The position numbers and the translations under genes are program-made. This document shows positions 4,751-44,022 of a DNA stretch of 52,976 nucleotides, one piece after another. The notes beneath the pieces were generated by a model. That model saw only the letters and a list, made by a program, of their open reading frames with translations, ran no database searches and was not told where the DNA came from. Origin of the DNA: a phage. The DNA is taken from the NCBI GenBank assembly GCA_014691105.1, contig GCA_014691105.1_4891.1; one strand, given 5' to 3'. Each line of letters opens with the position of its first letter. Positions within the stretch are counted from its first letter, which is position 1.

Positions 4751-4967
4751 ATTTTTTCTCTATTTTCTCCTTATCAGGACCAATCATCATCAGAGTAACA
4801 CGGCAGGAGCTAACCTTTTGCTTATCACAATAATAAGTGAAGCCCCTCTAAAATTTTTTTATATTTTTCGGAAATTGTGTAGACACTCACTAAAAAGTGG
4901 TGTACTTTCTCTCCTCCACGCGCTATCATTAATGTGAATCATCAAACGGCCTCACGGTCTCCTACTT

Positions 4968-5456
4968 GTGGGTAACATTATGAAAATTGTTCAATTAGAG
5001 CCATATCCGCCTCAATTGGCTATCGTTTGCAGCGAAAAAGAGCACGAAGAGCTCCAAAAACTGATGGATTTGCCTGATTTTGGCAACTGGAATGACCGGG
5101 AAACACGTAATGCATCTACCTTTACATTCTCTCGCGTTAACTATCCGTACCTGTTAATCGTCGTCGAACTGTACCACCCGGACGACCTGAAGTACAACAC
5201 CATTTCCCACGAGGGCATTCACGTAATGTCGTCGCTGATGAACTATGTAGGGCTTAAATACGACCCAGAAAACGATGAATGGTACGCATATCAGCATGAT
5301 TTCATCGTAAATGCCATTTGTAAGGCCCATGACGAGTATATAGAGCGCCAAAAAACGCCAAAAACTAAGCCAAAAATAGAAACAGGTAACCATCCTGCAA
5401 TACTGCCACAAGACGTAATGAACTCGCTTTTGACTGACACTACTGGGGACTTTTAG
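4968..5456 (+). CDS. hypothetical protein with HExxH motif (possible zinc metallopeptidase-like)
   Basis: HEGIH motif in ISHEGIHVMSSL; first gene of the rightward block; start could be GTG 4968 or ATG 4980. Confidence 0.45.
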   Translation: MGNIMKIVQLEPYPPQLAIVCSEKEHEELQKLMDLPDFGNWNDRETRNASTFTFSRVNYPYLLIVVELYHPDDLKYNTISHEGIHVMSSLMNYVGLKYDPENDEWYAYQHDFIVNAICKAHDEYIERQKTPKTKPKIETGNHPAILPQDVMNSLLTDTTGDF

Positions 5457-6131
5457 GTGATTAATATAATCTTTGCAATGGGCCAAAATGGGGAATTCGG
5501 GTTGTCTCCGGAGTTTATGAAGCATCAGGTTAACTCGTGCAAGACCATGGAAGAGGTCCGTGCGCTTCCTAAATCGGGTCTGCCCTGGAAATGTCCGTCA
5601 GACATGCTCTTTTTCAGGACTATGACTAATTCAGTTGCGACAGAACCAGGCTATAATGCATATCAGCAACTACGTGGACAGTTCCCACAAGACCAGTTGC
5701 GAAACATGATAGCAGATGTAACGGTAAAAATGGTAGGACATAGTGTATTGTTAGCCGGTCGTAACACGTATATGACTATGAGTCTGCCTATGTCAGCCCA
5801 CAGAATACTGCTGCCGGTATCTCGCCAGATTATGGCTTCAGAAGGCTACAATAATTTGGGTGAGATGGCAGCAGACCTTGAATCCAGAGGTACTGACGTC
5901 TGGATTGTAGGCGGTGCCGAATTGATACTTTCGGCCCTTGAAGAACACGCAAAAGACTTACTCCGTATCGACAACATGTTTATCAGTACGATCAAGCAAT
6001 CAGGTCCAAGTGATATTTTAATGGATTGTAGCAAATTAATGATGTACATTGATAGCGACTTTACATATAATGATGAATATGTTGATAACAAACAAGTTCT
6101 GATACAACGGTACAGGAGTTTACATAAATGA
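5457..6131 (+). CDS. dihydrofolate reductase-like protein
   Basis: DHFR-like blocks IIFAMGQNGEFG, GLPWKCPSDMLFFRTMT, VLLAGRNTYMTMSLPMSAHRILLPVSR and VWIVGGAELI, with an insertion after the first strand. Confidence 0.55.
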   Translation: MINIIFAMGQNGEFGLSPEFMKHQVNSCKTMEEVRALPKSGLPWKCPSDMLFFRTMTNSVATEPGYNAYQQLRGQFPQDQLRNMIADVTVKMVGHSVLLAGRNTYMTMSLPMSAHRILLPVSRQIMASEGYNNLGEMAADLESRGTDVWIVGGAELILSALEEHAKDLLRIDNMFISTIKQSGPSDILMDCSKLMMYIDSDFTYNDEYVDNKQVLIQRYRSLHK

Positions 6132-6634
6132 ACATCATAATCGAGGGTCCGGATAATGCTGGTAAAACTACAGTTATTGAGTTCCTTAAATCTCATACTG
6201 GCCGCAGTGTTACTCATAATACTGTTGACAAAGATCCCGAATCGGTCATGGCTAAACAGACCAAAGAAAACGCGTTGGAAGGCGATTGTATTTATGACCG
6301 TAGCGCTGTTATATCTGAGTATATCTATTGTCTGGTTCTTCAACGTACGCCTGTCATCAATATTAATGTATCACATGTAGCAGATATGTGCGACAACGCC
6401 ATCGTTATCTTTTGTATGCCGCCTGTTGAAAAGGTACTGGCAACTACAAAAGACGAGATGCCTGGTGTTGTGGAAAATCTTGAGGCGTTATACAATCAGT
6501 ATGACAACCTCATTGACGAACTGGTTATGATGAGTAAGCAGTTCTTCATTTACGACTGGACTGTTGAAGAAGATGGTCCTGAAGCAGTTCTAGAATATAT
6601 CAACGAACGTATTAATAAGGAGTGGAACAAATGA
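6128..6634 (+). CDS. P-loop nucleoside/deoxynucleoside monophosphate kinase (thymidylate-kinase-like)
   Basis: P-loop GPDNAGKTT followed by a DRS motif (YDRSAVISEY); ATGA overlap with the DHFR stop. Confidence 0.5.
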   Translation: MNIIIEGPDNAGKTTVIEFLKSHTGRSVTHNTVDKDPESVMAKQTKENALEGDCIYDRSAVISEYIYCLVLQRTPVININVSHVADMCDNAIVIFCMPPVEKVLATTKDEMPGVVENLEALYNQYDNLIDELVMMSKQFFIYDWTVEEDGPEAVLEYINERINKEWNK

Positions 6635-7332
6635 GCCCAGTATACAATACCTCAGTCACGCTGTCCGCAACCGTAGGGGGCGTCAACAAGACTGTTACTG
6701 TGGGTTCAACTAACCCTAACCTATCAGGCGAAGACCTGTTGCGCATGGCTAAACGTGCTCTTGAAGATAACGAAGTGACTGGTACTGAAGGTGTCAGCAT
6801 TGAGATTAACATCGAGGGTTATGAAGAAAGCATCAGCATTGCTACTTCTGACGATGAAGCTTGTGAACAGCTAAAGTTCAACGATGAGCTGGAATATCGT
6901 ACCGGTGAGATGTTCAGCAGTGCGCTAAACTGGTACTTGTACAAGGCTTCAAACTACGCTGGCGCTCCTATGTCAGACCGTATGTTAGCTGACATGTCTG
7001 CACGTGAAATTGCTAAAGGCTGGGCGCATGTACAGATGCTGCAGGAGCGTATCTGCAAGCTGAAAAGCTGCAATAAAGACGCGTCTGAGCTTATTACTGC
7101 CTATAAGCGACAGATTAACGACCTGCAGCAACTGATGGGCAAACGCGCTGAAGAATATGAGGCTGAGATTCGCAGTCTTAACGGCACAGCTGTTGCTAAC
7201 AACCGTGCTTTCAGCGAAGAGCGTAAAGCGCTTATCGCCCAGCGTGACGCTGAAAAACGTCGTGCAGACGACCTGGCAGACCGTCTCAACTTTATCCGTA
7301 AGCATATGGATGCTATGGAAGGGGTAATCTGA
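6622..7332 (+). CDS. hypothetical protein (coiled-coil C-terminus)
   Basis: ORF track; start may be the Met at 6631. Confidence 0.5.
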   Translation: MEQMSPVYNTSVTLSATVGGVNKTVTVGSTNPNLSGEDLLRMAKRALEDNEVTGTEGVSIEINIEGYEESISIATSDDEACEQLKFNDELEYRTGEMFSSALNWYLYKASNYAGAPMSDRMLADMSAREIAKGWAHVQMLQERICKLKSCNKDASELITAYKRQINDLQQLMGKRAEEYEAEIRSLNGTAVANNRAFSEERKALIAQRDAEKRRADDLADRLNFIRKHMDAMEGVI

Positions 7333-7622
7333 TGGACCTGTTCGATATGGTCGAACATCCTGAAGTAAACGGCTTGGCGGAAGCTAAGCCTTTTAACTGG
7401 GATGAATTCGTAGCAGGCAAACCTGCTGTAACCCACAACGGGCAGATTGCATATTACGGAGGCCATAGCGAACATCCGATGTGCACTCACCTGTACAACG
7501 CTATAACAACCATAACCGACGAAAACGTTATTAAATACGGAAAAGAAGTAATGTCTTTTCTTGTAGATGAACGCGGTTACTTCGAAGGTAAATGGTTCCC
7601 GTTTCTGGTAGAAATGGCATAA
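7332..7622 (+). CDS. hypothetical protein
   Basis: ORF track; ATGA overlap with the upstream gene. Confidence 0.5.
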   Translation: MDLFDMVEHPEVNGLAEAKPFNWDEFVAGKPAVTHNGQIAYYGGHSEHPMCTHLYNAITTITDENVIKYGKEVMSFLVDERGYFEGKWFPFLVEMA

Positions 7623-12000: not shown

Positions 12001-12978
12001 ATGTCACTGTATATTTTTAACGAACAAGTACGTTCTACCGCCACCGAACTGGTCGACCAGGACGTACAGAAGTTCAACGAAGCTTCTGCAGGTACCCTTA
12101 TCCTGGGTAACCAGTACGTAATTGGTGATTACGTTGAGCAGGCAATGTGGCAGCTGGTTGACGGCATCGCTACTCGCCGTAATGCTTACGCAGGCACCAA
12201 CAAAGTTGATGCACAGACTCTGGGCCAGATTCTGGACCGCTCTGTTAAAATCGACGGCCGTGTTGGTCCTCTGAACATTACCGGTACTATGATGCGTCGC
12301 ATCGGTGCAGGTGATACTGAACCAGCAGCTGTTGTTGCTGCACAGGCATCTGCTGCAATGTTCCAGGATTACCTGAACACCACTGCTGCATGTCTGGTAG
12401 CTGCTATCGGCGCAAACGCTGATGTTGTTCTGGACGTAACTTCAGGCTCCGGTGCTGCTGCAAACATCACCATGCAGAACCTGAACAAAGTCAACGCGAA
12501 GATGGGTGACCGTTCTCAGCAGATTCGTGCGTACATCATGCACTCTACTGCGTTCCACTCCCTCATCGACCAGGCTATCAACAACACAGAACACCTGTTC
12601 CAGATTGGTGACCTGAACGTGTACAAAGACTTCCTGGGTCGTCGTTATGTCGTTTCCGACATCCCGGCTCTGGTTGATGGCGCCGGTGCTTCCGCTAAGT
12701 ACCGCACTCTGGGTCTGACCCCGTCTGCTGCAATCGTTCAGGTCGGCGGCCTGTACGACATGGTTACCTCCGAGCAAACCGGTGGTGAAAACATCCTGCG
12801 TCAGATGCAGGGTGAATACGACTTCAACGTGTCGCTGAAAGGCTACAGCTGGGTCGGTCACAAAGCTGGTCAGTCTCCGACTGATGAAGACCTGGCTGCT
12901 CAGGCGTCCTGGTCTAAAGTTGCGACTTCCAACAAAGACACCGCCGGTGTTATGTTGCTGGCTAAGTCTGCAATCTAA
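12001..12978 (+). CDS. major capsid protein
   Basis: 325-aa ORF after the scaffold, followed by a strong intrinsic terminator; call by position and size. Confidence 0.6.
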   Translation: MSLYIFNEQVRSTATELVDQDVQKFNEASAGTLILGNQYVIGDYVEQAMWQLVDGIATRRNAYAGTNKVDAQTLGQILDRSVKIDGRVGPLNITGTMMRRIGAGDTEPAAVVAAQASAAMFQDYLNTTAACLVAAIGANADVVLDVTSGSGAAANITMQNLNKVNAKMGDRSQQIRAYIMHSTAFHSLIDQAINNTEHLFQIGDLNVYKDFLGRRYVVSDIPALVDGAGASAKYRTLGLTPSAAIVQVGGLYDMVTSEQTGGENILRQMQGEYDFNVSLKGYSWVGHKAGQSPTDEDLAAQASWSKVATSNKDTAGVMLLAKSAI

Positions 12979-13000
12979 CCCACAAACGGGACTAACAAAA

Positions 13001-13030
13001 GGCGAGCTGACGAGCTCGCCTTTTTTATTT
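13001..13030 (+). terminator. rho-independent terminator
   Basis: 8-bp stem GGCGAGCT/AGCTCGCC with GACG loop followed by TTTTTTATTT. Confidence 0.75.
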
Positions 13031-13056
13031 ACACGTATAAAGTTCTGGTATATAAT
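13028..13056 (+). promoter_or_regulatory. sigma70-like promoter TTTACA-N17-TATAAT
   Basis: TTTACA 13028-13033, TATAAT 13051-13056, then GGAGG RBS before the 13083 start. Confidence 0.55.
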
Positions 13057-13082
13057 CGGACTAAACTTGCTGGAGGCTTTCT

Positions 13083-13583
13083 ATGGCATACACACTTGTT
13101 GTGGAAGACGGTTCAATTGTTCCGGGTGCTAACTCGTATGTTAGCACTGCAGAAGTTGATGAGTTTATCACTAACGAAGGTATTCTTATTCAACCAGGAA
13201 CTGACCCGTACTACCAAGCTGCCAAAGCAGCTATTCGACTGGATAACCAATTTAACTGGTTAGGTCGTAAGGTCAGCAAAGCGCAGAACATGGCTTGGCC
13301 ACGTACTGGCCTCGGTGCATGCAATGTTGACATCGCGGAGTCTGTAATTCCGCGAGAAGTTAAGCTGGCACAGCTTTATATGATGGCCAGTGTATTGAGC
13401 TATGACGGCGAAGAAGGTGTGCGTAGCGACCAGGCTTTGCGCCGTAAGAAAGTTGGTAACCTGGAGATTGAATACTTCGACTCCAAATCAGGCGTTACCG
13501 GTGCAACTGACCTTTGGACGTCAGACGTCAGGGCCATGCTCAAGCACCTTGTGGGTGCATCACTGAGAGCGCGGAGAGTATAA
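13083..13583 (+). CDS. putative head completion / head-tail adaptor protein
   Basis: Position after the capsid gene; no diagnostic motif. Confidence 0.3.
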   Translation: MAYTLVVEDGSIVPGANSYVSTAEVDEFITNEGILIQPGTDPYYQAAKAAIRLDNQFNWLGRKVSKAQNMAWPRTGLGACNVDIAESVIPREVKLAQLYMMASVLSYDGEEGVRSDQALRRKKVGNLEIEYFDSKSGVTGATDLWTSDVRAMLKHLVGASLRARRV

Positions 13584-34629: not shown

Positions 34630-36597
34630 TTAGTGCGCCTCTGCCCAGTTACTTTCTATCTTAGCATCAGTAAGAACAGGTACACGAAGCGGTAGCACAG
34701 TTTCCATGACCCGTACGAAATCGTAGAATCCATCTTCTGCTTGCTTACCAGTTGGTAGAGAGAAGTTAAGCTCATCGTGTACCGTCAGGCGAGGTACGCC
34801 AATCACGTCGAAGTAACCGTCTTCATACCCTTTCAGCATTGCAGACTTCATCTGGTCTGCTGACGACCCTTGCAGCACTCGGTTGATTGCCTTGTGGGTG
34901 TCTGCCAGTTTAATGTTTGGGCCATACTCCTGACGTGCTTCTTCAAATGGCAAAGGCATCTTCCCGAATCCACCACGTTTTGGGACCCATTTGTTGAACC
35001 ACGTTTTCCGGCCCATAAAGGTTTCTACATACCCCTGGCTATAACATAAATCTTCATAATGCTTCATGGTAGCGCCAATGAATGGTGCACCCTGATGGTA
35101 CGCCTTCAGAACAGGTTCTGCTTCTTCAGGCGTCATTGCTAACTTACGGGCAAGAGCATTAAGCATCATGCCGTATAACAAACCAAAGTTGATGGTCTTA
35201 GCCGGTTTACGCTCTATAACGTGACCTGAGGCTTCCTTGATAATATCGACCATAACATTGTGGTAATCTGCTTCCGGGTTAGCCGCGAAAATTGCTCGTA
35301 ACTCATCAGCGCCCGGGCCGACTGCAAAATGCGCCATGAATCGATATTCAATTTGGGCGTAGTCTGCTGATCCCCATCGGTGTCCGACATCCGGTACGAA
35401 ACAAGCACGAAGGAGTGGTCCCAGTATTTTGTGTCTAGACGGTATATTCTGCAGATTAGGGTCAGATGAGCTAAACCGACCACTAACGGTTCCACCGTCA
35501 TCACCGCGCATTTGATGGAATTGACCGTGAAGGAAGCCATTTGTATTCATCCCCAATATATAGCCACGAATAAACGTGGACTGGATTTTCTCATAAGACT
35601 TAATCTCAGACACCAGTTCCGCAAACGGATGGTGCAAGCCTGCTAAGAAGTCCGCTGTAAACGACGGATTACCCGCCGCTGTTTTGAAGTACTCCAGACC
35701 TAAATGGTCAAATGCAAGTGCTAAATCAGGACCGGAGTTAACGTTAATGTTAAAGCCAATCTGGTCTTTAATCTGCTGGTGCATTTTCCTTATTTCAGCG
35801 CTAAGCGTATCATCCGCCTCTTTGGCCTTGTCAAGGTCAACACGCACACCTGCAAAACGCATCTTAAGCATTAATGGAATGAGCTTGCACTCCATATAGA
35901 ATACGTCTGTTAAACACCAGCGACTTAACAATGGCCACTGGGCTTTGATAATGTGTATTGGTAAGTCGGCGTCAGATTCAGCATAGTAACCCACAAGACG
36001 AGGAGGTGTTTTGTAGATGTACTTTCTGGCTTCACCTGTTGGCTTACAGCCATAAGCGTCTGAAATCCATTGGTACATCTCGGCTGAGTCTTTACCTTCG
36101 CCTACATACTTTCGTCCAAGTCCTTCAAGTGCAACACGCGCGCCTGGGTCGAGTAATGCTTCCGCGAATTGTACATCCATGCACAATCCTTTAACTTCCA
36201 CGCCTTCTGCTGCAAGCCAGCCCAAGTCATATGTGATGTTAGCACCGACTTTAACTTGGTTAGGTCGCGAGAGTTCGAGCCGAAGCCAACCAAGTACTTC
36301 CTCAGCTGGAAGGTTATCCTCTTCGCCGAGCTCGTGTCTGATTGGGTAGTAAGCTTTGAAGCCGTTGTCCGTAGCGATACTAACTCCAACGATATGACCC
36401 TCCCTCCTGGCCCAACCACTACCATTTGTATCCATCCCTGGGTCGTATGTTTCACAGTCAAGACCGATAATCTTTGCAGAAGACAAGTCCGGGTAATGCG
36501 CGCGCGGCCGCCATCCAGTATCCCTGACGTATGGTATAGGACGGTTGATAGGTTTAACATTCTTTGCACCTTCAAAGCTATCGAATAAAAAGCTCAT
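34630..36597 (-). CDS. family A DNA polymerase with 3'-5' exonuclease domain
   Basis: Exo motif GLDCETYD; polymerase motif A DYAQIEYRF, motif B RKPAKTINFGLLYGM, motif C VHDELNF. Confidence 0.9.
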   Translation of the reverse strand: MSFLFDSFEGAKNVKPINRPIPYVRDTGWRPRAHYPDLSSAKIIGLDCETYDPGMDTNGSGWARREGHIVGVSIATDNGFKAYYPIRHELGEEDNLPAEEVLGWLRLELSRPNQVKVGANITYDLGWLAAEGVEVKGLCMDVQFAEALLDPGARVALEGLGRKYVGEGKDSAEMYQWISDAYGCKPTGEARKYIYKTPPRLVGYYAESDADLPIHIIKAQWPLLSRWCLTDVFYMECKLIPLMLKMRFAGVRVDLDKAKEADDTLSAEIRKMHQQIKDQIGFNINVNSGPDLALAFDHLGLEYFKTAAGNPSFTADFLAGLHHPFAELVSEIKSYEKIQSTFIRGYILGMNTNGFLHGQFHQMRGDDGGTVSGRFSSSDPNLQNIPSRHKILGPLLRACFVPDVGHRWGSADYAQIEYRFMAHFAVGPGADELRAIFAANPEADYHNVMVDIIKEASGHVIERKPAKTINFGLLYGMMLNALARKLAMTPEEAEPVLKAYHQGAPFIGATMKHYEDLCYSQGYVETFMGRKTWFNKWVPKRGGFGKMPLPFEEARQEYGPNIKLADTHKAINRVLQGSSADQMKSAMLKGYEDGYFDVIGVPRLTVHDELNFSLPTGKQAEDGFYDFVRVMETVLPLRVPVLTDAKIESNWAEAH

Positions 36598-37622: not shown

Positions 37623-38507
37623 TTATACGGCCATTTGGAGTTTGATGTTTGGCATTGGTTTGTACTTCTCAACCATTGGCGTAACATCGGCAGGAGTGAA
37701 GTCAAACACTGACACGTCGTAAATTGCGTTAATGTCAGGACGACCTTCAAAGTTAGTGTCCAGTGTAGTATCAGAATTGCTTACGATACGTTGCAGGAAA
37801 ATCTTTGCCGCATCGATATGATTCTGATAGATATGATAATCACCCAGCGTAACAGTCATGTCGCCAACACCAGTACCCAGCTCAGCAGCAATGGTAATCT
37901 GCAGCATTTGATGCAACAGAATATCGTGAGGCAGACCAAGAATAACATCCGCGCTACGCATATGGAACATCAGCTCTAATTCATTACGGTTGTTAATGAA
38001 CAGCTGAAAACCATGGTAACAAGGCGGAAGGGCCATGGCATCCATCTCTTGTGGGTTCCACGCCGTAATGTACGCCCGGCGGTCGGTAGGCTTAACCTTC
38101 AGCGTTTCAATAACGTCTTTAAGCTGGTTAGTAAGAACACCATTCTTATAGAATGGCTTAATCCATTGCACGCCGTACACAGGACCTAAGTCACGGTTGT
38201 CTGGCGTACCCCAACGTTTGTTTGCGTCCTGCAGGTTACCTTCCCACCAGTTGCAGCCAAAGCCTTTGAGCGTGTCGACGTTTGAAATGCCGTTGATAAA
38301 GCAGTAAAGCTCAGCAGCAACAGCTTTGATGTTAACAGGTTTAAACACCGGCACCATCAGTTTGTTGTCGTTGAAAGCCAGTTTAAACGCCGTACCAAAA
38401 CAACGGCGGGTACCAACACCTGTACGGTCTACAACATCCTCGCCTTTACGTAAGATAAAAGAAATGATGTCGCTGTAAAGAGAATCGACAGTGCTGTATG
38501 TTTTCAT
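37623..38507 (-). CDS. thymidylate synthase superfamily enzyme, probable dCMP C5-hydroxymethylase or methylase
   Basis: TS-like blocks DRTGVGT, LGPVYGVQW, TAWNP, catalytic Cys in ALPPCYHGFQLF, RSADVILGLPHD and GDYHIYQNH; Asp replaces the TS Asn in LGLPHD (TS has LGLPFN). Confidence 0.7.
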   Translation of the reverse strand: MKTYSTVDSLYSDIISFILRKGEDVVDRTGVGTRRCFGTAFKLAFNDNKLMVPVFKPVNIKAVAAELYCFINGISNVDTLKGFGCNWWEGNLQDANKRWGTPDNRDLGPVYGVQWIKPFYKNGVLTNQLKDVIETLKVKPTDRRAYITAWNPQEMDAMALPPCYHGFQLFINNRNELELMFHMRSADVILGLPHDILLHQMLQITIAAELGTGVGDMTVTLGDYHIYQNHIDAAKIFLQRIVSNSDTTLDTNFEGRPDINAIYDVSVFDFTPADVTPMVEKYKPMPNIKLQMAV

Positions 38508-39100
38508 TAAAACAGTTCCTTTTGAGCCGGGTTAACGTGTGCGTCGATAATGGCCTGGATGTCAGGTGCTTTCCATCCTTCAGGCTTAACAATATCCTGA
38601 CTAGACTTATGCTTGCTGTTGCTTGCATCAGGCTTAGCGCGTTCTTTCGCCATGTTAGCAGCCTGTACCGCATCCCATGCTGCGTCAAGTGGCCAGTTGT
38701 TGTTTGCGCACCAGGTAATCAGGTGGATAATTAACTGGGCCAGACGGTCGCAATGAGTGTCTTCAGTATCCTTAACGTATACAATAAGGCCATCAGCATC
38801 GAAACGGTCCATAAATCCGCAGGGCGTAGTTAACAGAATCGGATACTCAAATTCGTTGGTGAACCATGCAGTCTGGTCGTACAGGTATAACGTACCTGCA
38901 GCGATGTAAATTAAATCTACAATACCGTCTAAGAAGCCAGCTTTGTCGCCGTCTTTCTTAGCTTGCTTAATTTCTTCCATCTCCTCAATAAGACGGTCGT
39001 AACGAAGCTTGAACTCAGGTTTACCGCCTTGACTAACAGGCTTGAGGTCAAACTTCTCATGAAAAGCGGTAACGCCTGCAGCAATTTTACTGAATCGCAT
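38507..39100 (-). CDS. MazG-like nucleoside triphosphate pyrophosphohydrolase
   Basis: All-alpha NTP-PPase signature RLIEEMEEIKQA...DGIVDLIYIAAG; coupled to the TS-like gene. Confidence 0.55.
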   Translation of the reverse strand: MRFSKIAAGVTAFHEKFDLKPVSQGGKPEFKLRYDRLIEEMEEIKQAKKDGDKAGFLDGIVDLIYIAAGTLYLYDQTAWFTNEFEYPILLTTPCGFMDRFDADGLIVYVKDTEDTHCDRLAQLIIHLITWCANNNWPLDAAWDAVQAANMAKERAKPDASNSKHKSSQDIVKPEGWKAPDIQAIIDAHVNPAQKELF

Positions 39101-40163: not shown

Positions 40164-40691
40164 TTATTCAGCAGCTTCTTCGTTGTCGCCTTCGATCGCG
40201 CCAGCCAGTTTAGCAGCTTCAGCTTTAGCAGCTTCTGCTTTCTGGCGAGCTTTTTCAGCTTTCTCTTCAGCTTTGCGAATCTGCTCAGCAGCTTTCGCTT
40301 CGGCTTTTTCAGCTTTGATGCGAGCACGCTCTTCAGCTTTACGCTGTTTTTCAGCGGCTTTAGCAGCATCGCGTTCTGCTTTAGCGGTATCAACACGCTT
40401 AGCCAGAACTTTACCAGTGGCTTTACGCCAGTAGGTCAGCTGGGAAGAAACAGTACCACGGGACATTTCGGTAGTGGCAACAACTTCGTCCATAACGTCA
40501 GAGCTGGACTTGCCTTCTTCATGGGCTTTATCAGCCAGGTCCCATACGTAACGTGCGCCAGTACCAGCTGCTGGATACAGTACGCCGTTAACTTCTTCTT
40601 TACCAGTTACAAAAGTCAGTTTCTCGCTCATAATTTTTTCCTCGTCTACAGGGCTTAATGTTTGTTCGTTACGTGAGTTAATATACGTCAT
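40164..40691 (-). CDS. KfrA-like DNA-binding protein with Ala/Lys/Glu-rich coiled-coil tail
   Basis: N-terminal SRGTVSSQLTYWRKATG resembles the KfrA N-terminal DNA-binding motif; C-terminus AKAERDAAKAAEKQRKAEERARIKAEKAEAKAAE; likely start at the internal Met near 40631. Confidence 0.4.
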   Translation of the reverse strand: MTYINSRNEQTLSPVDEEKIMSEKLTFVTGKEEVNGVLYPAAGTGARYVWDLADKAHEEGKSSSDVMDEVVATTEMSRGTVSSQLTYWRKATGKVLAKRVDTAKAERDAAKAAEKQRKAEERARIKAEKAEAKAAEQIRKAEEKAEKARQKAEAAKAEAAKLAGAIEGDNEEAAE

Positions 40692-40708
40692 TTAAAAGAG
40701 TGTGTAAA
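40680..40708 (-). promoter_or_regulatory. sigma70-like promoter TTTACA-N17-TATATT (minus strand)
   Basis: Minus-strand TTTACA (plus 40703-40708) and TATATT (plus 40680-40685). Confidence 0.45.
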
Positions 40709-40737
40709 CACCTTTTTTAAACTTTTTTCATTAGTGT

Positions 40738-40959
40738 CTAGAAAGGCACATCATAGTCAAAAAGTTTACATCCGGAAGACAGGACTGCCGGCGGTGGTGT
40801 TTTGCCTCCGGATAACAGGCAACCTCCTGCCTGAAAACTACGGCAGTTTGCACAGCTCATATCCTGCAAGTATATAATAAGCTGTCGGCGAACATGCCGT
40901 GGTAAAGCTTTAGCCTGGGTTGCTACCCGTTCAAATAGTTCTCTGTCATCGAGCGCCAT
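40738..40959 (-). CDS. hypothetical Cys-containing small protein
   Basis: ORF track. Confidence 0.4.
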   Translation of the reverse strand: MALDDRELFERVATQAKALPRHVRRQLIIYLQDMSCANCRSFQAGGCLLSGGKTPPPAVLSSGCKLFDYDVPF

Positions 40960-42616
40960 AGCCGTTTCCCCAGTCGTAGTTCATGATTTGTGGGTAGGGT
41001 CGTTTAATCCATACCTTGATGCGCTTAGGAATAGCCAGCTCACCCTTACGGCGAATAAACTCATCGCATGTTTCAGGCGGTTCTGTTCCTGCAGCATTAC
41101 GCCACCAGGCGTCTGCCATTTGCTTAGCATTACCATGGGCCTCTATATTTACCCATGTTGTATACACTTCCAGGTTTGAGTAGTACACAACCTTTATACT
41201 GTCAGGTCGTCCCTGCTTCTGGAATAAAGAATAGTTTACCAGCGTAACATCTTTATCCACAACACGAAGCTGACCGTTAGTCATTACCTCTTCTTCTGAT
41301 GAAGTGAAGGCAATAGCAGGTCCGTTAACTGTAAACTCAAACTCATGCCCGCACATCGGATATACACCATTCTCGTCCGGCGTACTTCCTTTAGCCGGAT
41401 GCTTACACGTACGGGCTGCATAACCACTTACCTGGTGGCAGATAGGGCACTCTTTACCGCCAGGTGTTTTCTCTGACCGTTTCTTTTTCTTCTTACCAAG
41501 ACGTGGCGGAACAGCCGGGTCATCAATAGGACCAAGGTCAATGGTGTTAGATGTAAAGTCCATGACAAGACAGTCATGCTTACCAGGCGCTGTACGTAAT
41601 CCTCGACCGAGTATCTGCACCCACAAAGCAACTGACGTGGACGGGCGCAAGATGCCGAGCATATCAATCTCAGGATAGTCAAATCCTGTCGTCAATACGT
41701 TTACGTTTACACAGACCCGTGCTCGTCCGCTTGTAAACTCTTCAAGTGCGGCTTCACGTTCTTTCTTTGTAAGACCGCCATGCACAACTACAGTCTGCCA
41801 ACCTCGCAGATTAAACTCGTCTGCTATGTTGTGGGCGTGCTCAACACTTGTGGCAAATACAAGAACGTGGTTCCTGTCTTTACCGTAGTGCATCATCTCA
41901 CGAATAGCCGCGACTGTTATACTATGTTGGTTGGCTACCTTCTCAAGCTCTGACGGGATGTAGTCACCCATCCTTTCACCAACATTACTGGTGTCAATCT
42001 TGGTTAACACTTTCTTGTTGACCAGGCGTGACAGGAAGCCTTCATTTACCAGTCTGGTAAAGGCGTCAGGTGTTGTAAGGTCGTAGCAGATGTCGGTAAA
42101 TATACCACAGTCCAGCAAGTGACCCCCTGCCAAGCGATATGGAGTTGCTGTGAGTCCTGTTACCTTTACCTTAGGATTAAGCTCTTTGAAGTGAGCAATA
42201 ACCTTACGGTATGTTGTTTCAGACTTCTCAGGAACAAGATGGGCTTCGTCAATGAATATAAGATTGAACTTACCTGCTTCTTCCAGGTTCTTAATGATTG
42301 ACTGTACTGATGCTACAACGATACGACCTGAAAAGTCTTTGTGTCCTGCACCTGAAGAGTAGATTGATACTGGTGCTTGTGGCCAGTGACGAACAATTGC
42401 TTTGGCGTCTTGCTCAACCAGCTCCTTGACGTGAGTCAGTATAAGAATACGCTGACGGGGATAGCTGGTAAGAATATCCTTCATCAGCATACCAAGCACA
42501 GGTGATTTGCCTGAACCTGTTGGCATGACAATAAGTGGATTACCACTATAAGAATTGAAGTACGACCACCAAGCTGTGACCGCTTCTTGTTGATACCAGC
42601 GAGCTTCAAAAGCCAT
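40946..42616 (-). CDS. SF2 DEAD/DEAH-box DNA helicase with C-terminal zinc-ribbon
   Basis: Motif I MPTGSGKS, motif II FIDEAHLV, motif III GLTATP, motif VI QILGRGLR; C-terminal CPICHQ...CKHP...CGHE cysteine cluster. Confidence 0.8.
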   Translation of the reverse strand: MAFEARWYQQEAVTAWWSYFNSYSGNPLIVMPTGSGKSPVLGMLMKDILTSYPRQRILILTHVKELVEQDAKAIVRHWPQAPVSIYSSGAGHKDFSGRIVVASVQSIIKNLEEAGKFNLIFIDEAHLVPEKSETTYRKVIAHFKELNPKVKVTGLTATPYRLAGGHLLDCGIFTDICYDLTTPDAFTRLVNEGFLSRLVNKKVLTKIDTSNVGERMGDYIPSELEKVANQHSITVAAIREMMHYGKDRNHVLVFATSVEHAHNIADEFNLRGWQTVVVHGGLTKKEREAALEEFTSGRARVCVNVNVLTTGFDYPEIDMLGILRPSTSVALWVQILGRGLRTAPGKHDCLVMDFTSNTIDLGPIDDPAVPPRLGKKKKKRSEKTPGGKECPICHQVSGYAARTCKHPAKGSTPDENGVYPMCGHEFEFTVNGPAIAFTSSEEEVMTNGQLRVVDKDVTLVNYSLFQKQGRPDSIKVVYYSNLEVYTTWVNIEAHGNAKQMADAWWRNAAGTEPPETCDEFIRRKGELAIPKRIKVWIKRPYPQIMNYDWGNGYGAR

Positions 42617-42674: not shown

Positions 42675-43553
42675 TTATTTTAAGGAAAGTTTAACGGGCT
42701 TCTCATCCTGTGGGAAGACATCAGCGGGGCGATAATCATCACAAGCTGCTAATTGTTCTTCGATTGTTTCGAGCTCTTTCTGGTGCTTGTTGCAATACCA
42801 CACTTTGCCCTGAAGCGGTTTACTGTAATGGCAGGTTCTGCAGTTCCTGTCAGGCATTGCTCCTTTGTGGCACAAGTGGTGGTACTCACACATTCCTGGC
42901 TTGCACTCCCACCAGATAGGCGATTCAGAAATCTTCGGCATATCCAAACCAGATTCCGCATATACAACAGCCTCCGCTTTACTCAGTTGTATGTCGCTTT
43001 CCAGTAAGTCAATCTCGACCACTTCAAAATACATCTCGTCGGTGTTCTTGTTGATTGCAATATACACAGCTTGGTTAAGCTTAAGCTTCCGCATGTATAC
43101 CTGCATCTGGGCGTAGTGTACCGGCTTACTTGCTTTAACAGACTTGAGCTTGACTAACTCTTTAAACGACTTATCGCCATGCGTCTTGAATTCAGCAAGT
43201 GCCCATACGCCTTTGTATTTGATCACACAGTCACAAGACCCAGAGAAGATGCCATTGAATTCATGTATGCGCCATTGCTTACCAGTCTTAGGATTGACGT
43301 CCAGCACTTCGTCACATACTGAACGAAGCCACTTTATAATTCTGCTTTCTTCAAGGTTACCACGTTCAAACAGACGAAGTTGCTTAGCCGTAAACTTCTC
43401 CTTGAACGACCAGTGCAGTACATGCCAAAGATAGCGATAGCAGTTGTGCCCTATCTGCGATGCTCCAAGATGCCCGCGTCGTTCTTCTCTTTCGTGGGCT
43501 TCGACTATCTTGATGTCAATACGTTTCTGCAGGTCGTCAAACGGACTGGACAT
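42675..43553 (-). CDS. PD-(D/E)XK nuclease of the Cas4/RecB-like exonuclease family
   Basis: D...EFK core (CDCVIKYKGVWALAEFKT), QhxxY motif (YAQMQVY) and a C-terminal cysteine cluster; track ORF extends to 43670 but the Met at 43553 is the likely start. Confidence 0.6.
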   Translation of the reverse strand: MSSPFDDLQKRIDIKIVEAHEREERRGHLGASQIGHNCYRYLWHVLHWSFKEKFTAKQLRLFERGNLEESRIIKWLRSVCDEVLDVNPKTGKQWRIHEFNGIFSGSCDCVIKYKGVWALAEFKTHGDKSFKELVKLKSVKASKPVHYAQMQVYMRKLKLNQAVYIAINKNTDEMYFEVVEIDLLESDIQLSKAEAVVYAESGLDMPKISESPIWWECKPGMCEYHHLCHKGAMPDRNCRTCHYSKPLQGKVWYCNKHQKELETIEEQLAACDDYRPADVFPQDEKPVKLSLK

Positions 43554-44022
43554 TGTTAAACTCCTCAACACTGAATTCATCGTACACAATGTTATGTGCC
43601 CACAAATGAGCGACGGCATTTGCCATGCTATCCTTCCATTTGGATTGTGAAGCTGTATGCGCCAATGCAACTACACGTACCAGGCTAAGGTTGGCTATCA
43701 GCATGTCAGCACAATGTTCGCACGGCGGGTAGGTTATGTAGATGGTAACCGGGCCTAAAGAAGGAGTGTCTAACTCCCTCCTTATATTAGCTAAGGTGTT
43801 TATCTCGCTATGAATAGTTAGAGCGTTCTTGAGGCTATTAGGCACTATTCTTATAGAGTCTAACTGCGTAGGCAGACCGTTATATCCAGTGGAAATAATA
43901 CGCTTGTTCTGGTCAACAAGAACGCTACCGACTTGACGTTTCGGGTCCTTCGACCAGCTTGCAACTTCACAAGCTATGCGCATAAACCGCCTGTCCCACT
44001 TGTCCATCTTCTTCTTTTGCAT
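43537..44022 (-). CDS. dCMP deaminase
   Basis: Cytidine/dCMP deaminase zinc motifs HSE (LTIHSEINTL) and PCEHC (YPPCEHCADML). Confidence 0.8.
   Translation of the reverse strand: MQKKKMDKWDRRFMRIACEVASWSKDPKRQVGSVLVDQNKRIISTGYNGLPTQLDSIRIVPNSLKNALTIHSEINTLANIRRELDTPSLGPVTIYITYPPCEHCADMLIANLSLVRVVALAHTASQSKWKDSMANAVAHLWAHNIVYDEFSVEEFNNVQSV

What the first reader, a model, noticed from the sequence alone, without database searches (positions are those of the whole stretch)
5457..6634. DHFR and dNMP kinase pair, with dCMP deaminase elsewhere, completing a nucleotide-rewiring toolkit
A DHFR-like gene (LPW, GR.T...LP.R, VGG blocks) is coupled to a small P-loop kinase with a thymidylate-kinase-like DRS motif, and dCMP deaminase lies at 43537..44022. 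DHFR is only needed if a TS-type reaction oxidises folate to dihydrofolate, which argues for methyl transfer (dTMP or 5-methyl-dCMP) rather than hydroxymethyl transfer. No canonical Asn-type TS is visible in the window. The chemistry of the final base is therefore unresolved.
Basis: partly seen in the sequence, partly recalled or inferred. Interest (0 to 1): 0.55.

Follow-up and report, generated by a model that had tools for sequence, protein, structure and literature searches.

The report
DHFR–kinase pair serving 5-methylcytosine DNA
Two overlapping phage genes encode a folate-recycling enzyme (DHFR) and a small thymidylate-kinase-like kinase; with a cytosine-type thymidylate-synthase relative elsewhere in the genome they most likely let this Salmonella/E. 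coli phage replace cytosine with 5-methylcytosine, a trick known from phage Xp12 that I found no report of for this phage group.

Summary
The window is a whole Rosemountvirus (BP63-like) genome. ORF 5457-6131 is a divergent but intact DHFR: it passes the Pfam cut-off, its model matches only DHFRs, and its catalytic residues are invariant. It carries two inserts. ORF 6128-6634 overlaps it by ATGA and is a P-loop kinase. Its closest solved relative is the uncharacterised YorR, followed by thymidylate kinases, but it fails the curated TMPK cut-offs. GenBank already names both genes, so the pair itself is ordinary.

The context is the interesting part. The only TS homologue (37623-38507) keeps every residue needed for reductive methylation but has N177D, H147Y, Q165M and F176H, a cytosine-type pocket. 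That signature defines a 31-member phage clade. A MazG-like pyrophosphatase and an Xp12/PBCV-1-like deaminase complete a set matching the Xp12 5-methylcytosine pathway.

DNA of the sister-genus phage S144, which has identical TS motifs, resists all seven C-containing restriction enzymes tested. Its authors could not name the responsible gene.

Best reading: DHFR recycles dihydrofolate from a dCMP methylase, and the kinase phosphorylates 5-methyl-dCMP. This is a new member of a known kind. No chemistry was tested here.

The parts
5457..6131 (+). Divergent dihydrofolate reductase (224 aa) with two inserts, at about residues 16-38 and 58-94.
   Evidence: Pfam DHFR_1 scores 29.7 bits against a cut-off of 25. 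PHROG 316 gives E 6e-26. A profile of 18 homologues searched against the PDB hits only DHFRs, the best being Plasmodium DHFR-TS at 3.6e-8. The AF2 model has pLDDT 79, and all top-50 Foldseek PDB hits are DHFRs. In E. coli numbering, W22, D27, F31, T35, G43, T46, R57, G95, G96, T113(S) and D122 are invariant in the family, while Y100 is I/L.
6128..6634 (+). Small thymidylate-kinase-like (YorR-like) P-loop kinase (168 aa); proposed 5-methyl-dCMP / dNMP kinase.
4968..5456 (+). Upstream gene of the same close-packed gene run (162 aa, unknown function, HExxH motif); not shown to belong to the pathway.
   Evidence: Its stop codon directly abuts the DHFR start. It has no Pfam hit and matches PHROG 1365, of unknown function.
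37623..38507 (-). Thymidylate-synthase homologue with a cytosine-type pocket; predicted dCMP C5-methylase (5-methyl-dCMP synthase) and the source of the dihydrofolate that the DHFR would recycle.
   Evidence: Pfam Thymidylat_synt gives E 2e-62. Alignment to E. coli ThyA, Xp12 TS and T4 gp42 shows C146, L143, D169, E58, Y94, W80, W83, R21, R126/127, R166, H207, Y209 and the C-terminal tail retained, with N177D, H147Y, Q165M and F176H. This signature occurs in 29 of 31 clade members and in 0 of 89 next-best ThyA homologues.
38507..39100 (-). MazG/PRA-PH-like nucleotide pyrophosphohydrolase; proposed dCTPase that removes dCTP and feeds dCMP to the methylase.
   Evidence: Pfam PRA-PH gives E 1.9e-7. 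PHROG 671 'nucleotide pyrophosphohydrolase' gives E 4.6e-25. It shares base 38507 with the TS gene.
43537..44022 (-). dCMP/dCTP-deaminase family protein; proposed to convert 5-methyl-dC nucleotide into dT nucleotide, or dCMP into dUMP.
   Evidence: Pfam dCMP_cyt_deam_1 gives E 2.5e-21 and MafB19-deam gives 3.8e-12. It is 34% identical to the Xp12 deaminase (E 1e-23). Its closest solved structure is 7FH4, the PBCV-1 dCMP/dCTP deaminase, the same nearest structure reported for the 5mC-selective deaminase mSCD-B5.
34630..36597 (-). Family A DNA polymerase with 3'-5' exonuclease; it would have to accept 5-methyl-dCTP.
   Evidence: Pfam DNA_pol_A gives E 1.5e-63. Rosemountvirus PolA is reported to be related to that of Mesyanzhinovviridae, the family that contains Xp12 (PMC11946847).

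Best explanation
The pair is the folate-recycling and phosphorylation arm of an Xp12-type pre-replicative pathway that replaces cytosine with 5-methylcytosine.

Proposed flow (every enzymatic step is inferred, none measured):
1. The MazG-like pyrophosphatase converts dCTP to dCMP.
2. The Asp-177 TS homologue reductively methylates dCMP with 5,10-methylene-THF, giving 5-methyl-dCMP and dihydrofolate.
3. The DHFR (5457-6131) reduces dihydrofolate back to THF with NADPH. About 50% of the nucleotides in phage DNA (5mC plus T), rather than 27% (T alone), can then be made by a TS-type reaction. These figures are my arithmetic from the base composition.
4. The translationally coupled kinase (6128-6634) phosphorylates 5-methyl-dCMP, and possibly dTMP, to the diphosphate. 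Host NDP kinase completes the triphosphate.
5. The deaminase converts part of the 5-methyl-dC nucleotide pool into dT nucleotide.
6. The phage PolA incorporates 5-methyl-dCTP.

Shown here: the gene identities at family and fold level, conservation of the active-site residues, the gene overlap, and conservation of the gene set in relatives.
For: DHFR identity rests.

Kinase:
- Fold and nearest families.
- The P-loop Asp (EGxDxAGK) and the DR[S] motif are invariant.
- ATGA coupling is shown.
- The DHFR-kinase adjacency is kept in metagenomic relatives whose DHFRs are only 41-54% identical.

TS homologue:
- It has N177D with all hydride-transfer features retained.
- The signature is clade-wide: 29 of 31 members against 0 of 89 next-best ThyA homologues.
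- The N177D-gives-dCMP rule and the L143 (methyl) versus D/E (hydroxymethyl) rule come from PMC13326640 and PMC8670742.
- Five of seven Asp-type TS homologues tested by others made 5mdCMP.

Gene set:
- The same five Pfam domains (Thymidylat_synt, PRA-PH, DNA_pol_A and its exonuclease, dCMP_cyt_deam_1/MafB19) characterise 'modified-cytosine' viral contigs.
- Xp12, whose DNA is 100% 5mC, carries a DHFR-deaminase-TS cluster.
- All eight Pamexvirus phages encode a DHFR.

Experimental support from a relative:
- S144 has identical TS motifs and is 68-83% identical across the other four proteins.
- Its DNA is cut only by the A/T-only enzymes SspI and PacI and resists seven C-containing enzymes.
- Six of those seven sites are also resistant in authentic 5mC Xp12 DNA.

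Need for a phage kinase:
- Others had to add the T4 dNMP kinase to get 5mdC or 5hodC into E. coli DNA efficiently.
- This fits a phage-encoded kinase being needed in enterobacteria.

No glycosyltransferase, TET or other hypermodification gene was recognised.
Against: - No nucleoside chemistry exists for any Rosemountvirus.
- The S144 digests do not separate 5mC from 5hmC. T4gt DNA resists the same enzymes.
- The kinase fails the curated TMPK cut-offs: 16.5 bits against 27, and 22.8 against 83.
- The kinase's nearest structure, YorR, is uncharacterised.
- No conserved basic residue is visible in the kinase's lid-equivalent segment, residues 97-113.
- DHFR is not obligatory. RF1 has the TS and the kinase but no DHFR.
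- The kinase is not obligatory for 5mC either, because Xp12 has no homologue.
- The L143 rule is correlative. Xp12's own methylase aligns with Asn there.
- A near-identical phage, CF2, is recorded on E. coli MG1655, a strain that carries 5mC-dependent McrBC/McrA/Mrr (my own knowledge). However, fully 5mC Xp12 DNA was only a weak or inconclusive McrBC substrate in vitro.
- DHFR Y100 is replaced by I/L.
Confidence: 0.55

Rival explanations
1. Conventional dTTP supply, as annotated in GenBank and in the S144 paper. The deaminase makes dUMP, the TS makes dTMP, the kinase is a true dTMP kinase and DHFR recycles folate. On this reading there is no base modification by these genes.
For: Database names say so. 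The S144 authors interpreted the five genes this way. The TS homologue exceeds the cut-off of one NCBIfam TS model, TIGR03284 (172 bits against 108). The kinase's nearest characterised structures are thymidylate kinases. Two clade members carry Asn at position 177.
Against: N177D, together with H147Y, Q165M and F176H, remodels exactly the residues around the pyrimidine 4-position. It is fixed in 29 of 31 clade members and absent from 89 of 89 canonical ThyA homologues. N177D or N229D alone turns TS into a dCMP methylase (literature cited). S144 DNA is resistant at C-containing sites, and its authors found no other modification gene.
Confidence: 0.1
2. A different C5 cytosine modification, such as 5-hydroxymethyl-C or a further hypermodified base. 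The TS homologue would release THF, the DHFR would merely support host ThyA (fed with dUMP by the phage deaminase), and the kinase would act on the modified dCMP.
For: Asp-177 is shared with T4 dCMP hydroxymethylase. The S144 restriction pattern fits 5hmC as well as 5mC. Two of seven Asp-type homologues predicted as methylases did not yield 5mdC in others' hands. Several replication-module ORFs have no assigned function. Growth of CF2 on MG1655 would be easier to explain for a bulkier base.
Against: L143 is Leu rather than Asp or Glu. D169 is not Asn, so the 5hoC-synthase marker is absent. The C-terminal tail that closes over the folate is present, whereas T4 gp42 lacks it. No glycosyltransferase, TET/JBP or aminoacyl-transfer genes were recognised. 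The protein is much closer to true ThyA (E 1e-40) than to hydroxymethylases.
Confidence: 0.2
3. The 6128 ORF is not a dNMP kinase. It could be a deoxynucleoside salvage kinase, a DNA or polynucleotide kinase (like the 5-hmdU DNA kinases), or another small-molecule kinase. Its coupling to DHFR would then be incidental.
For: All curated nucleotide-kinase models are sub-threshold, and those matches cover mainly the P-loop. Foldseek ranks deoxyadenosine and deoxycytidine kinases just after YorR. Homologues in Gordonia phages are variously named 'polynucleotide kinase'. No conserved lid arginine is present.
Confidence: 0.15

Closest known systems
Xanthomonas phage Xp12 and the Pamexvirus phages such as AXL1: the DHFR - dCMP deaminase - TS homologue (dCMP methylase) - NTP pyrophosphohydrolase cluster, giving 100% 5mC DNA
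   Same: The enzyme set is the same: an Asp-177 TS homologue, a DHFR, a short dCMP_cyt_deam_1 deaminase (34% identical), a nucleotide pyrophosphohydrolase, PolA, a helicase and a Cas4-like nuclease. The DNA restriction phenotype of the relative S144 is also the same.
   Different: The TS is only 28% identical to Xp12's and lies closer to canonical ThyA. It keeps L143 where Xp12 aligns with Asn, so its cytosine-type pocket was probably acquired independently. The DHFR is barely alignable (E 2e-5 over 69 residues) and carries two inserts. The DHFR sits about 30 kb from the TS, next to the packaging genes, not in the cluster. Xp12 has no homologue of the kinase. The hosts are enterobacteria and the virion is a myovirus.
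T4 dNTP-synthesis set: frd (DHFR), gp1 (dNMP kinase), gp42 (dCMP hydroxymethylase), cd (dCMP deaminase), gp56 (dCTPase)
   Same: The logic is the same: clear dCTP, modify dCMP at C5 with a TS homologue, phosphorylate it with a phage kinase, and recycle folate with a phage DHFR.
   Different: There is no second, Asn-type TS (td). The TS homologue has L143 and the C-terminal tail, so methyl rather than hydroxymethyl is predicted. The kinase belongs to the YorR/TMPK-like family and not to the gp1 family. No glucosyltransferases were found.
Engineered TS N177D (E. coli) / N229D (L. casei) dCMP methylases
   Same: The same single substitution on an otherwise complete TS scaffold (literature cited).
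   Different: The natural protein also has H147Y, Q165M and F176H. These changes presumably optimise binding of the cytosine N4 amino group.
YorR (Bacillus SPbeta prophage; PDB 2AXP/3KB2) and the small 'nucleotide kinases' next to TS homologues in RB69, DLP3 and RL38J1
   Different: None of these proteins has a demonstrated substrate. I did not test whether the window kinase is homologous to the RB69, DLP3 or RL38J1 proteins.
Plasmodium DHFR-TS DHFR domain
   Same: It gives the best PDB sequence hits for the phage DHFR family (3.6e-8). Its alignment runs through the region of the phage protein's second insert.
   Different: The phage protein is not fused to the TS, and overall identity is about 18%. 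The shared insert position may be coincidental.

Membership tests
Dihydrofolate reductase (FolA type, Pfam PF00186) | Score above the curated Pfam gathering cut-off | tested here: met
   29.7 bits against a cut-off of 25, in two stretches, the best covering residues 94-163. Eighteen of 20 homologues carry a precomputed PF00186 hit.
Dihydrofolate reductase (FolA type, Pfam PF00186) | DHFR fold | tested here: met
   The AF2 model has pLDDT 79 and pTM 0.78. All top-50 Foldseek PDB hits are DHFRs, with target TM-scores up to 0.74. The other four AF2 models were poorer (pLDDT 57-62).
Dihydrofolate reductase (FolA type, Pfam PF00186) | Catalytic acid and the folate- and NADPH-binding residues (E. 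coli D27, W22, F31, R57, T113, G43, T46, G95-G96) | tested here: met
   All are invariant in the 18-member family, with T113 replaced by Ser.
Dihydrofolate reductase (FolA type, Pfam PF00186) | Tyr100 (E. coli numbering) next to the nicotinamide | tested here: not met
   It is Ile or Leu in all 18 members. The Xp12 DHFR has Ala at this position. The residue is conserved in many DHFRs, but I do not regard it as family-defining.
Dihydrofolate reductase (FolA type, Pfam PF00186) | NADPH-dependent reduction of dihydrofolate | not testable with these tools
   Requires an enzyme assay.
Thymidylate kinase (PF02223 / TIGR00041) | Score above the curated cut-offs | tested here: not met
   PF02223 scores 16.5 bits against 27, and TIGR00041 scores 22.8 against 83.25. 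Both matches cover only the P-loop region. Twelve of 23 homologues reach E<=0.01 on PF02223, the best at 1.1e-5.
Thymidylate kinase (PF02223 / TIGR00041) | NMP-kinase/TMPK-like fold | tested here: met
Thymidylate kinase (PF02223 / TIGR00041) | P-loop with an acidic residue (GxD/EGxGK[ST]) and a DR[YHF] motif | tested here: inconclusive
   E6-G7-x-D9-x-A-G-K13 and D57-R58 are invariant, but the third motif residue is Ser. The motif definitions are from my own knowledge of the family.
Thymidylate kinase (PF02223 / TIGR00041) | Lid segment with catalytic basic residues | tested here: not met
   No conserved Arg or Lys occurs in residues 97-113. The conserved residues there are M111, G113, V114, E116 and N117.
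Xp12-type complete C-to-5mC replacement pathway | TS homologue with Asp at E. coli position 177 and retained reductive-methylation residues | tested here: met
   D177, with L143, C146, D169, E58, Y94, W80/W83 and the C-terminal tail retained. The signature is clade-wide.
Xp12-type complete C-to-5mC replacement pathway | Companion deaminase, pyrophosphohydrolase and DHFR | tested here: met
   All three are present. Their activities on 5-methyl-dC nucleotides and on dCTP were not tested.
Xp12-type complete C-to-5mC replacement pathway | 5-methylcytosine replacing cytosine in virion DNA | not testable with these tools
   The evidence is indirect only. DNA of the relative S144 resists seven C-containing enzymes, and six of those sites are also resistant in Xp12 DNA.
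T4-type dCMP hydroxymethylase pathway | Acidic residue at position 143, a truncated C-terminus, and glucosyltransferases | tested here: not met
   Position 143 is Leu, the tail is full length, and no glycosyltransferase was found.
5-hydroxy-dCMP synthase (RB69/DLP3 type) | D169N substitution | tested here: not met
   D169 is retained in the window protein and in all 31 clade members. The rule comes from PMC13326640.
5-hydroxymethyluracil DNA kinase (M6 gp54 type) | Full-length homology | tested here: not met
   hhalign aligns only 21 P-loop columns.

The most novel reading that the evidence does not exclude
Rosemountvirus, Loughboroughvirus and their roughly 45-kb relatives, which are widely isolated Salmonella, E. 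coli and Erwinia biocontrol phages, package DNA in which every cytosine is 5-methylcytosine. The base would be made by a ThyA-derived dCMP methylase that acquired N177D/H147Y/Q165M/F176H independently of Xp12. All thymidylate would then come from deamination of 5-methyl-dC nucleotides. The YorR-like kinase would be a dedicated 5-methyl-dCMP kinase, a specificity not yet assigned to any protein family. The insert-bearing DHFR might dock on the methylase to channel dihydrofolate, by analogy with Plasmodium DHFR-TS.
Probability: 0.35. Interest if true: 0.65.

Novelty: new member of a known kind. Interest (0 to 1): 0.45.

Why it matters
- It would name the genes behind the unexplained 'cytosine modification' of phage S144.
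- Dozens of GenBank records label these proteins as thymidylate synthase and thymidylate kinase. They would need re-annotation.
- These phages are being developed for Salmonella and E. coli biocontrol. 5mC DNA changes their sensitivity to restriction and to modification-dependent defences. It also affects sequencing and engineering protocols.
- The pathway would be a compact five-gene route to fully 5mC DNA that already works in E. coli and Salmonella, including a candidate 5-methyl-dCMP kinase that Xp12 lacks. That could be useful for making 5mC DNA in vivo.
- It would be a natural counterpart of the classic N177D/N229D TS specificity-switch experiments.

Tried and rejected
- I tested whether the kinase is a 5-hmdU DNA kinase. 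Only the P-loop aligns with M6 gp54, so I rejected this.
- I looked for a Pfam or NCBIfam assignment of the kinase. Everything is sub-threshold.
- I looked for further modification enzymes (glycosyltransferase, TET/JBP, amino-acid transferases) among the replication-module ORFs. None was recognised.
- I asked whether DHFR always accompanies the Asp-type TS. It does not, because RF1 lacks it.
- I asked whether the kinase always accompanies 5mC. It does not, because Xp12 has no homologue.
- I searched other Rosemountvirus and Loughboroughvirus papers for restriction or nucleoside data. There is none beyond S144.
- I asked whether the S144 digest pattern discriminates 5mC from 5hmC. It does not.
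- A kinase homologue on a 45.8-kb contig (P0043) belongs to an unrelated phage.
- The DQ163916 record of phage M6 has no annotation, so I used NC_007809 instead.
Full report
WHAT THE WINDOW IS. The 52,976-base window is essentially a complete genome of a Rosemountvirus, a BP63-like myophage of Salmonella and E. coli. The region 4900-7400 is 95-96% identical to some 45 GenBank phages. The gene order matches the annotated genome of phage SPLA12. Structural and packaging genes lie on the plus strand from about 8.1 to 34 kb. A replication and nucleotide-metabolism module lies on the minus strand from about 34.6 to 49.7 kb.

CHECK OF THE OBSERVATION. Both ORFs exist as described.
- The DHFR-like ORF starts with GTG at 5457, immediately after the TAG of the upstream ORF.
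- Its TGA overlaps the ATG of the kinase ORF (ATGA, 6128-6131).
- The kinase TGA in turn overlaps an ATG at 6631, which is preceded by AAGGAG.
- The genes from 4968 to 7622 therefore form one tightly packed run just upstream of the terminase gene.
- The deaminase at 43537-44022 is on the minus strand and is a solid Pfam hit.

THE DHFR.
- Pfam DHFR_1 passes its gathering score (29.7 against 25). PHROG 316 'dihydrofolate reductase' gives E 6e-26.
- The family is small: 20 clusters in 5.8 billion proteins. It is confined to this phage lineage. The next relatives are phiKZ-type DHFRs at 28% identity.
- A profile of 18 members searched against the PDB hits only DHFRs. The best hits are Plasmodium DHFR-TS at 3.6e-8.
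- The AlphaFold model has pLDDT 79, with the other four models poorer. Its top 50 PDB matches are all DHFRs.
- After adding E. coli FolA (sequence from my memory, 159 aa) to the family alignment, W22, D27, F31, T35, G43, T46, R57, G95, G96 and D122 are invariant. T113 is an invariant Ser. Only Y100 is lost, to I/L, as it also is in the Xp12 DHFR.
- Two inserts, at about residues 16-38 and 58-94, account for the extra 65 residues.

I conclude that this is a catalytically competent DHFR. The conclusion is inferred from residues and fold and has not been measured.

THE KINASE.
- Curated models do not claim it: PF02223 16.5 against 27, dNK 18.4 against 27, TIGR00041 22.8 against 83. All of these matches cover the P-loop only.
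- PHROG 761 'thymidylate kinase' matches the full length at 1.4e-25. Twelve of 23 homologues reach E<=0.01 on PF02223.
- The model is confident, with pLDDT 89.
- Invariant residues are E6, G7, D9 and K13 (a P-loop with the Asp that I know as typical of TMPKs), then D57, R58, S63 and Y67.
- No conserved basic residue is seen in the lid-equivalent segment.
- Similarity to the 5-hmdU DNA kinase M6 gp54 is limited to 21 P-loop columns.

'Thymidylate-kinase-like nucleotide kinase' is therefore a fair description. Membership of the TMPK family in the strict sense is not established, and the substrate is unknown.

THE CONTEXT THAT GIVES THE PAIR ITS MEANING.

The TS homologue:
- The only TS homologue (37623-38507, minus strand) is a strong TS family member (Pfam 2e-62; 1e-40 to solved ThyAs).
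- I aligned it with E. coli ThyA (sequence from memory, 264 aa), Xp12 TS and T4 gp42. It keeps R21, E58, W80, W83, Y94, R126/127, L143, C146, R166, S167, D169, H207, Y209 and the complete C-terminal tail.
- It has N177D, H147Y, Q165M and F176H.
- The control behaves as published, since T4 gp42 shows D143 and D177.
- Among the 120 best database homologues, 31 form a phage clade at 50-99% identity in which Y147, M165 and H176 are universal. D177 occurs in 29 of those 31.
- All 89 other homologues, canonical ThyAs at 38% identity or less, have H, Q, F and N at these positions.

The residue rules from the literature:
- Asp at position 177 switches TS to dCMP.
- A bulky hydrophobic residue at 143 goes with a methyl product and Asp or Glu with a hydroxymethyl product. 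D169N marks 5-hydroxy-dCMP synthases (PMC13326640).
- By these rules the window protein is a dCMP methylase.

Neighbouring genes:
- The gene that overlaps the TS start by one base encodes a MazG/PRA-PH-like pyrophosphohydrolase.
- The deaminase is 34% identical to that of Xp12. Its closest solved structure is the PBCV-1 dCMP/dCTP deaminase.
- That is the same nearest structure as for the 5mC-selective deaminase mSCD-B5, which converts 5mdCTP to dTTP (bioRxiv 10.1101/2024.12.05.627091).
- That study also found that Thymidylat_synt, PRA-PH, DNA_pol_A and its exonuclease, and MafB19/dCMP deaminase domains are the signature neighbourhood of 'modified-cytosine' viral contigs. Five of seven Asp-type TS homologues tested there made 5mdCMP.

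Xp12 and its relatives:
- Xp12 DNA is 100% 5mC.
- The phage has a DHFR-deaminase-TS cluster.
- All eight Pamexvirus phages encode a DHFR, and the AXL1 enzyme is functional in vivo.

EXPERIMENTAL HINT FROM A RELATIVE.
- Phage S144 (Loughboroughvirus) carries the same five genes in the same arrangement.
- Its TS active-site motifs are identical to the window's (MALPPCYHGF; RSADVILGLPHD). The other four proteins are 68-83% identical.
- Its DNA is cut only by SspI and PacI, which have A/T-only sites, and resists seven enzymes with C-containing sites.
- The authors concluded that the DNA is modified on cytosine and found no responsible gene (PMC7432712).
- Six of those seven sites are also resistant in genuine 5mC Xp12 DNA. 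They are resistant in 5hmC T4gt DNA as well, so the data do not identify the base.
- I found no paper that links Rosemountvirus or Loughboroughvirus to 5mC. [quoted passage not shown]

DISTRIBUTION.
- The DHFR-kinase adjacency, again followed by terminase and portal genes where the contig extends that far, is kept in metagenomic relatives whose DHFRs are only 41% and 54% identical.
- The Asp-type TS clade extends to phages of about 45 kb with the same replication-module synteny.
- One sequenced example is Erwinia phage RF1, whose record is marked partial. It has the Asp-type TS and a clear kinase homologue (E 1.6e-41) but no DHFR detectable with the family profile, E. coli FolA or the Xp12 DHFR.
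- Conversely, Xp12 has a DHFR but no homologue of the kinase.
- In this lineage, therefore, the kinase tracks the Asp-type TS more faithfully than the DHFR does. DHFR looks like a capacity booster, not a requirement.

MOST LIKELY MECHANISM. All steps below are inferred.
1. dCTP is hydrolysed to dCMP by the MazG-like enzyme.
2. dCMP is reductively methylated by the TS homologue, consuming methylene-THF and releasing dihydrofolate.
3. The phage DHFR regenerates THF.
4. The coupled kinase makes 5-methyl-dCDP, and host NDP kinase makes the triphosphate.
5. The deaminase converts part of the 5-methyl-dC pool to dT nucleotides, as in Xp12.
6. PolA incorporates 5mdCTP.

With 23% C and 27% T per nucleotide of duplex, TS-type turnovers would rise from 27% to 50% of all nucleotides. 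That gives a rationale for carrying a DHFR. Other groups needed a phage dNMP kinase to move 5mdCMP or 5hodCMP efficiently into E. coli DNA. That gives a rationale for the kinase in an enterobacterial host.

CAVEATS.
- There is no chemistry for this genus.
- The kinase substrate is a guess.
- The L143 rule is correlative, and Xp12 itself aligns with Asn there.
- Two clade members, both on short contigs, have Asn-177.
- The near-identical phage CF2 is recorded on E. coli MG1655, which has 5mC-dependent restriction systems. However, fully 5mC DNA was a weak or inconclusive McrBC substrate in vitro.

VERDICT. The pair itself is ordinary and already named in GenBank. The system it belongs to is best read as a new member of the known Xp12-type 5-methylcytosine pathway, with an independently derived methylase and an added TMPK-like kinase. 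I found no report of this for this much-used phage group in the literature I could search.

Noticed in passing
window 4968-5456 (+): The 162-aa ORF directly upstream of the DHFR contains an HExxH motif (ISHEGIHVMS). It has no Pfam hit and matches PHROG 1365, of unknown function. It may be a small zinc-dependent hydrolase co-expressed with the DHFR-kinase pair.
   Followed up: no
whole window: GATC is about five-fold under-represented (30 sites against 156 expected from a Markov model). GATATC (EcoRV) is absent against 12 expected. G/C-only palindromes (CCGG, GCGC, CGCG) are at expectation. MboI (GATC) still cuts fully 5mC Xp12 DNA. Avoidance of GATC but not of C-only sites would fit a genome protected by cytosine modification.
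   Followed up: partly
window 5457-6131; residues about 16-38 and 58-94: The best PDB sequence hits of the DHFR family are Plasmodium DHFR-TS, and that alignment runs through the region of the phage protein's second insert. My own recollection is that Plasmodium DHFR-TS has species-specific inserts at comparable positions. This raises the untested idea that the phage inserts mediate contact with the TS homologue.
   Followed up: no
TS clade proteins P0059 and P0066 (contigs of 1.0-1.6 kb): Two of the 31 members of the Asp-type TS clade have Asn at position 177 while keeping Y147, M165 and H176. This could be reversion, sequencing error or a functional variant.
   Followed up: no
L012 (Erwinia phage RF1, PV942687) 40478-40993 and 12300-13232; L002/L015 (Xp12): RF1 has the Asp-type TS and the kinase homologue but no detectable DHFR. 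Xp12 has a DHFR but no homologue of this kinase. The two accessory genes are therefore independently dispensable.
   Followed up: yes
GenBank KY608966 (CF2), PP583539 ('Listeria phage 220426122051'): CF2 is a Rosemountvirus by sequence but is filed as Tequatrovirus and marked UNVERIFIED, with host MG1655. A record labelled as a Listeria phage encodes a 96% identical DHFR, which probably reflects a mislabelled host or contamination.
   Followed up: no
relatives JEP7 (MT764207) and KE24 (PP856723), region homologous to window 4900-7400: In these two phages the match is split into two pieces, with an HNH or homing endonuclease annotated under it. This suggests a mobile endonuclease insertion near the DHFR-kinase genes.
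   Followed up: no
window 6622-7332 (+): The mechanical ORF starts at GTG 6622. An ATG at 6631, preceded by AAGGAG and overlapping the kinase stop (ATGA), is the more likely start. The product is a coiled-coil protein of unknown function (PHROG 37540).
   Followed up: partly
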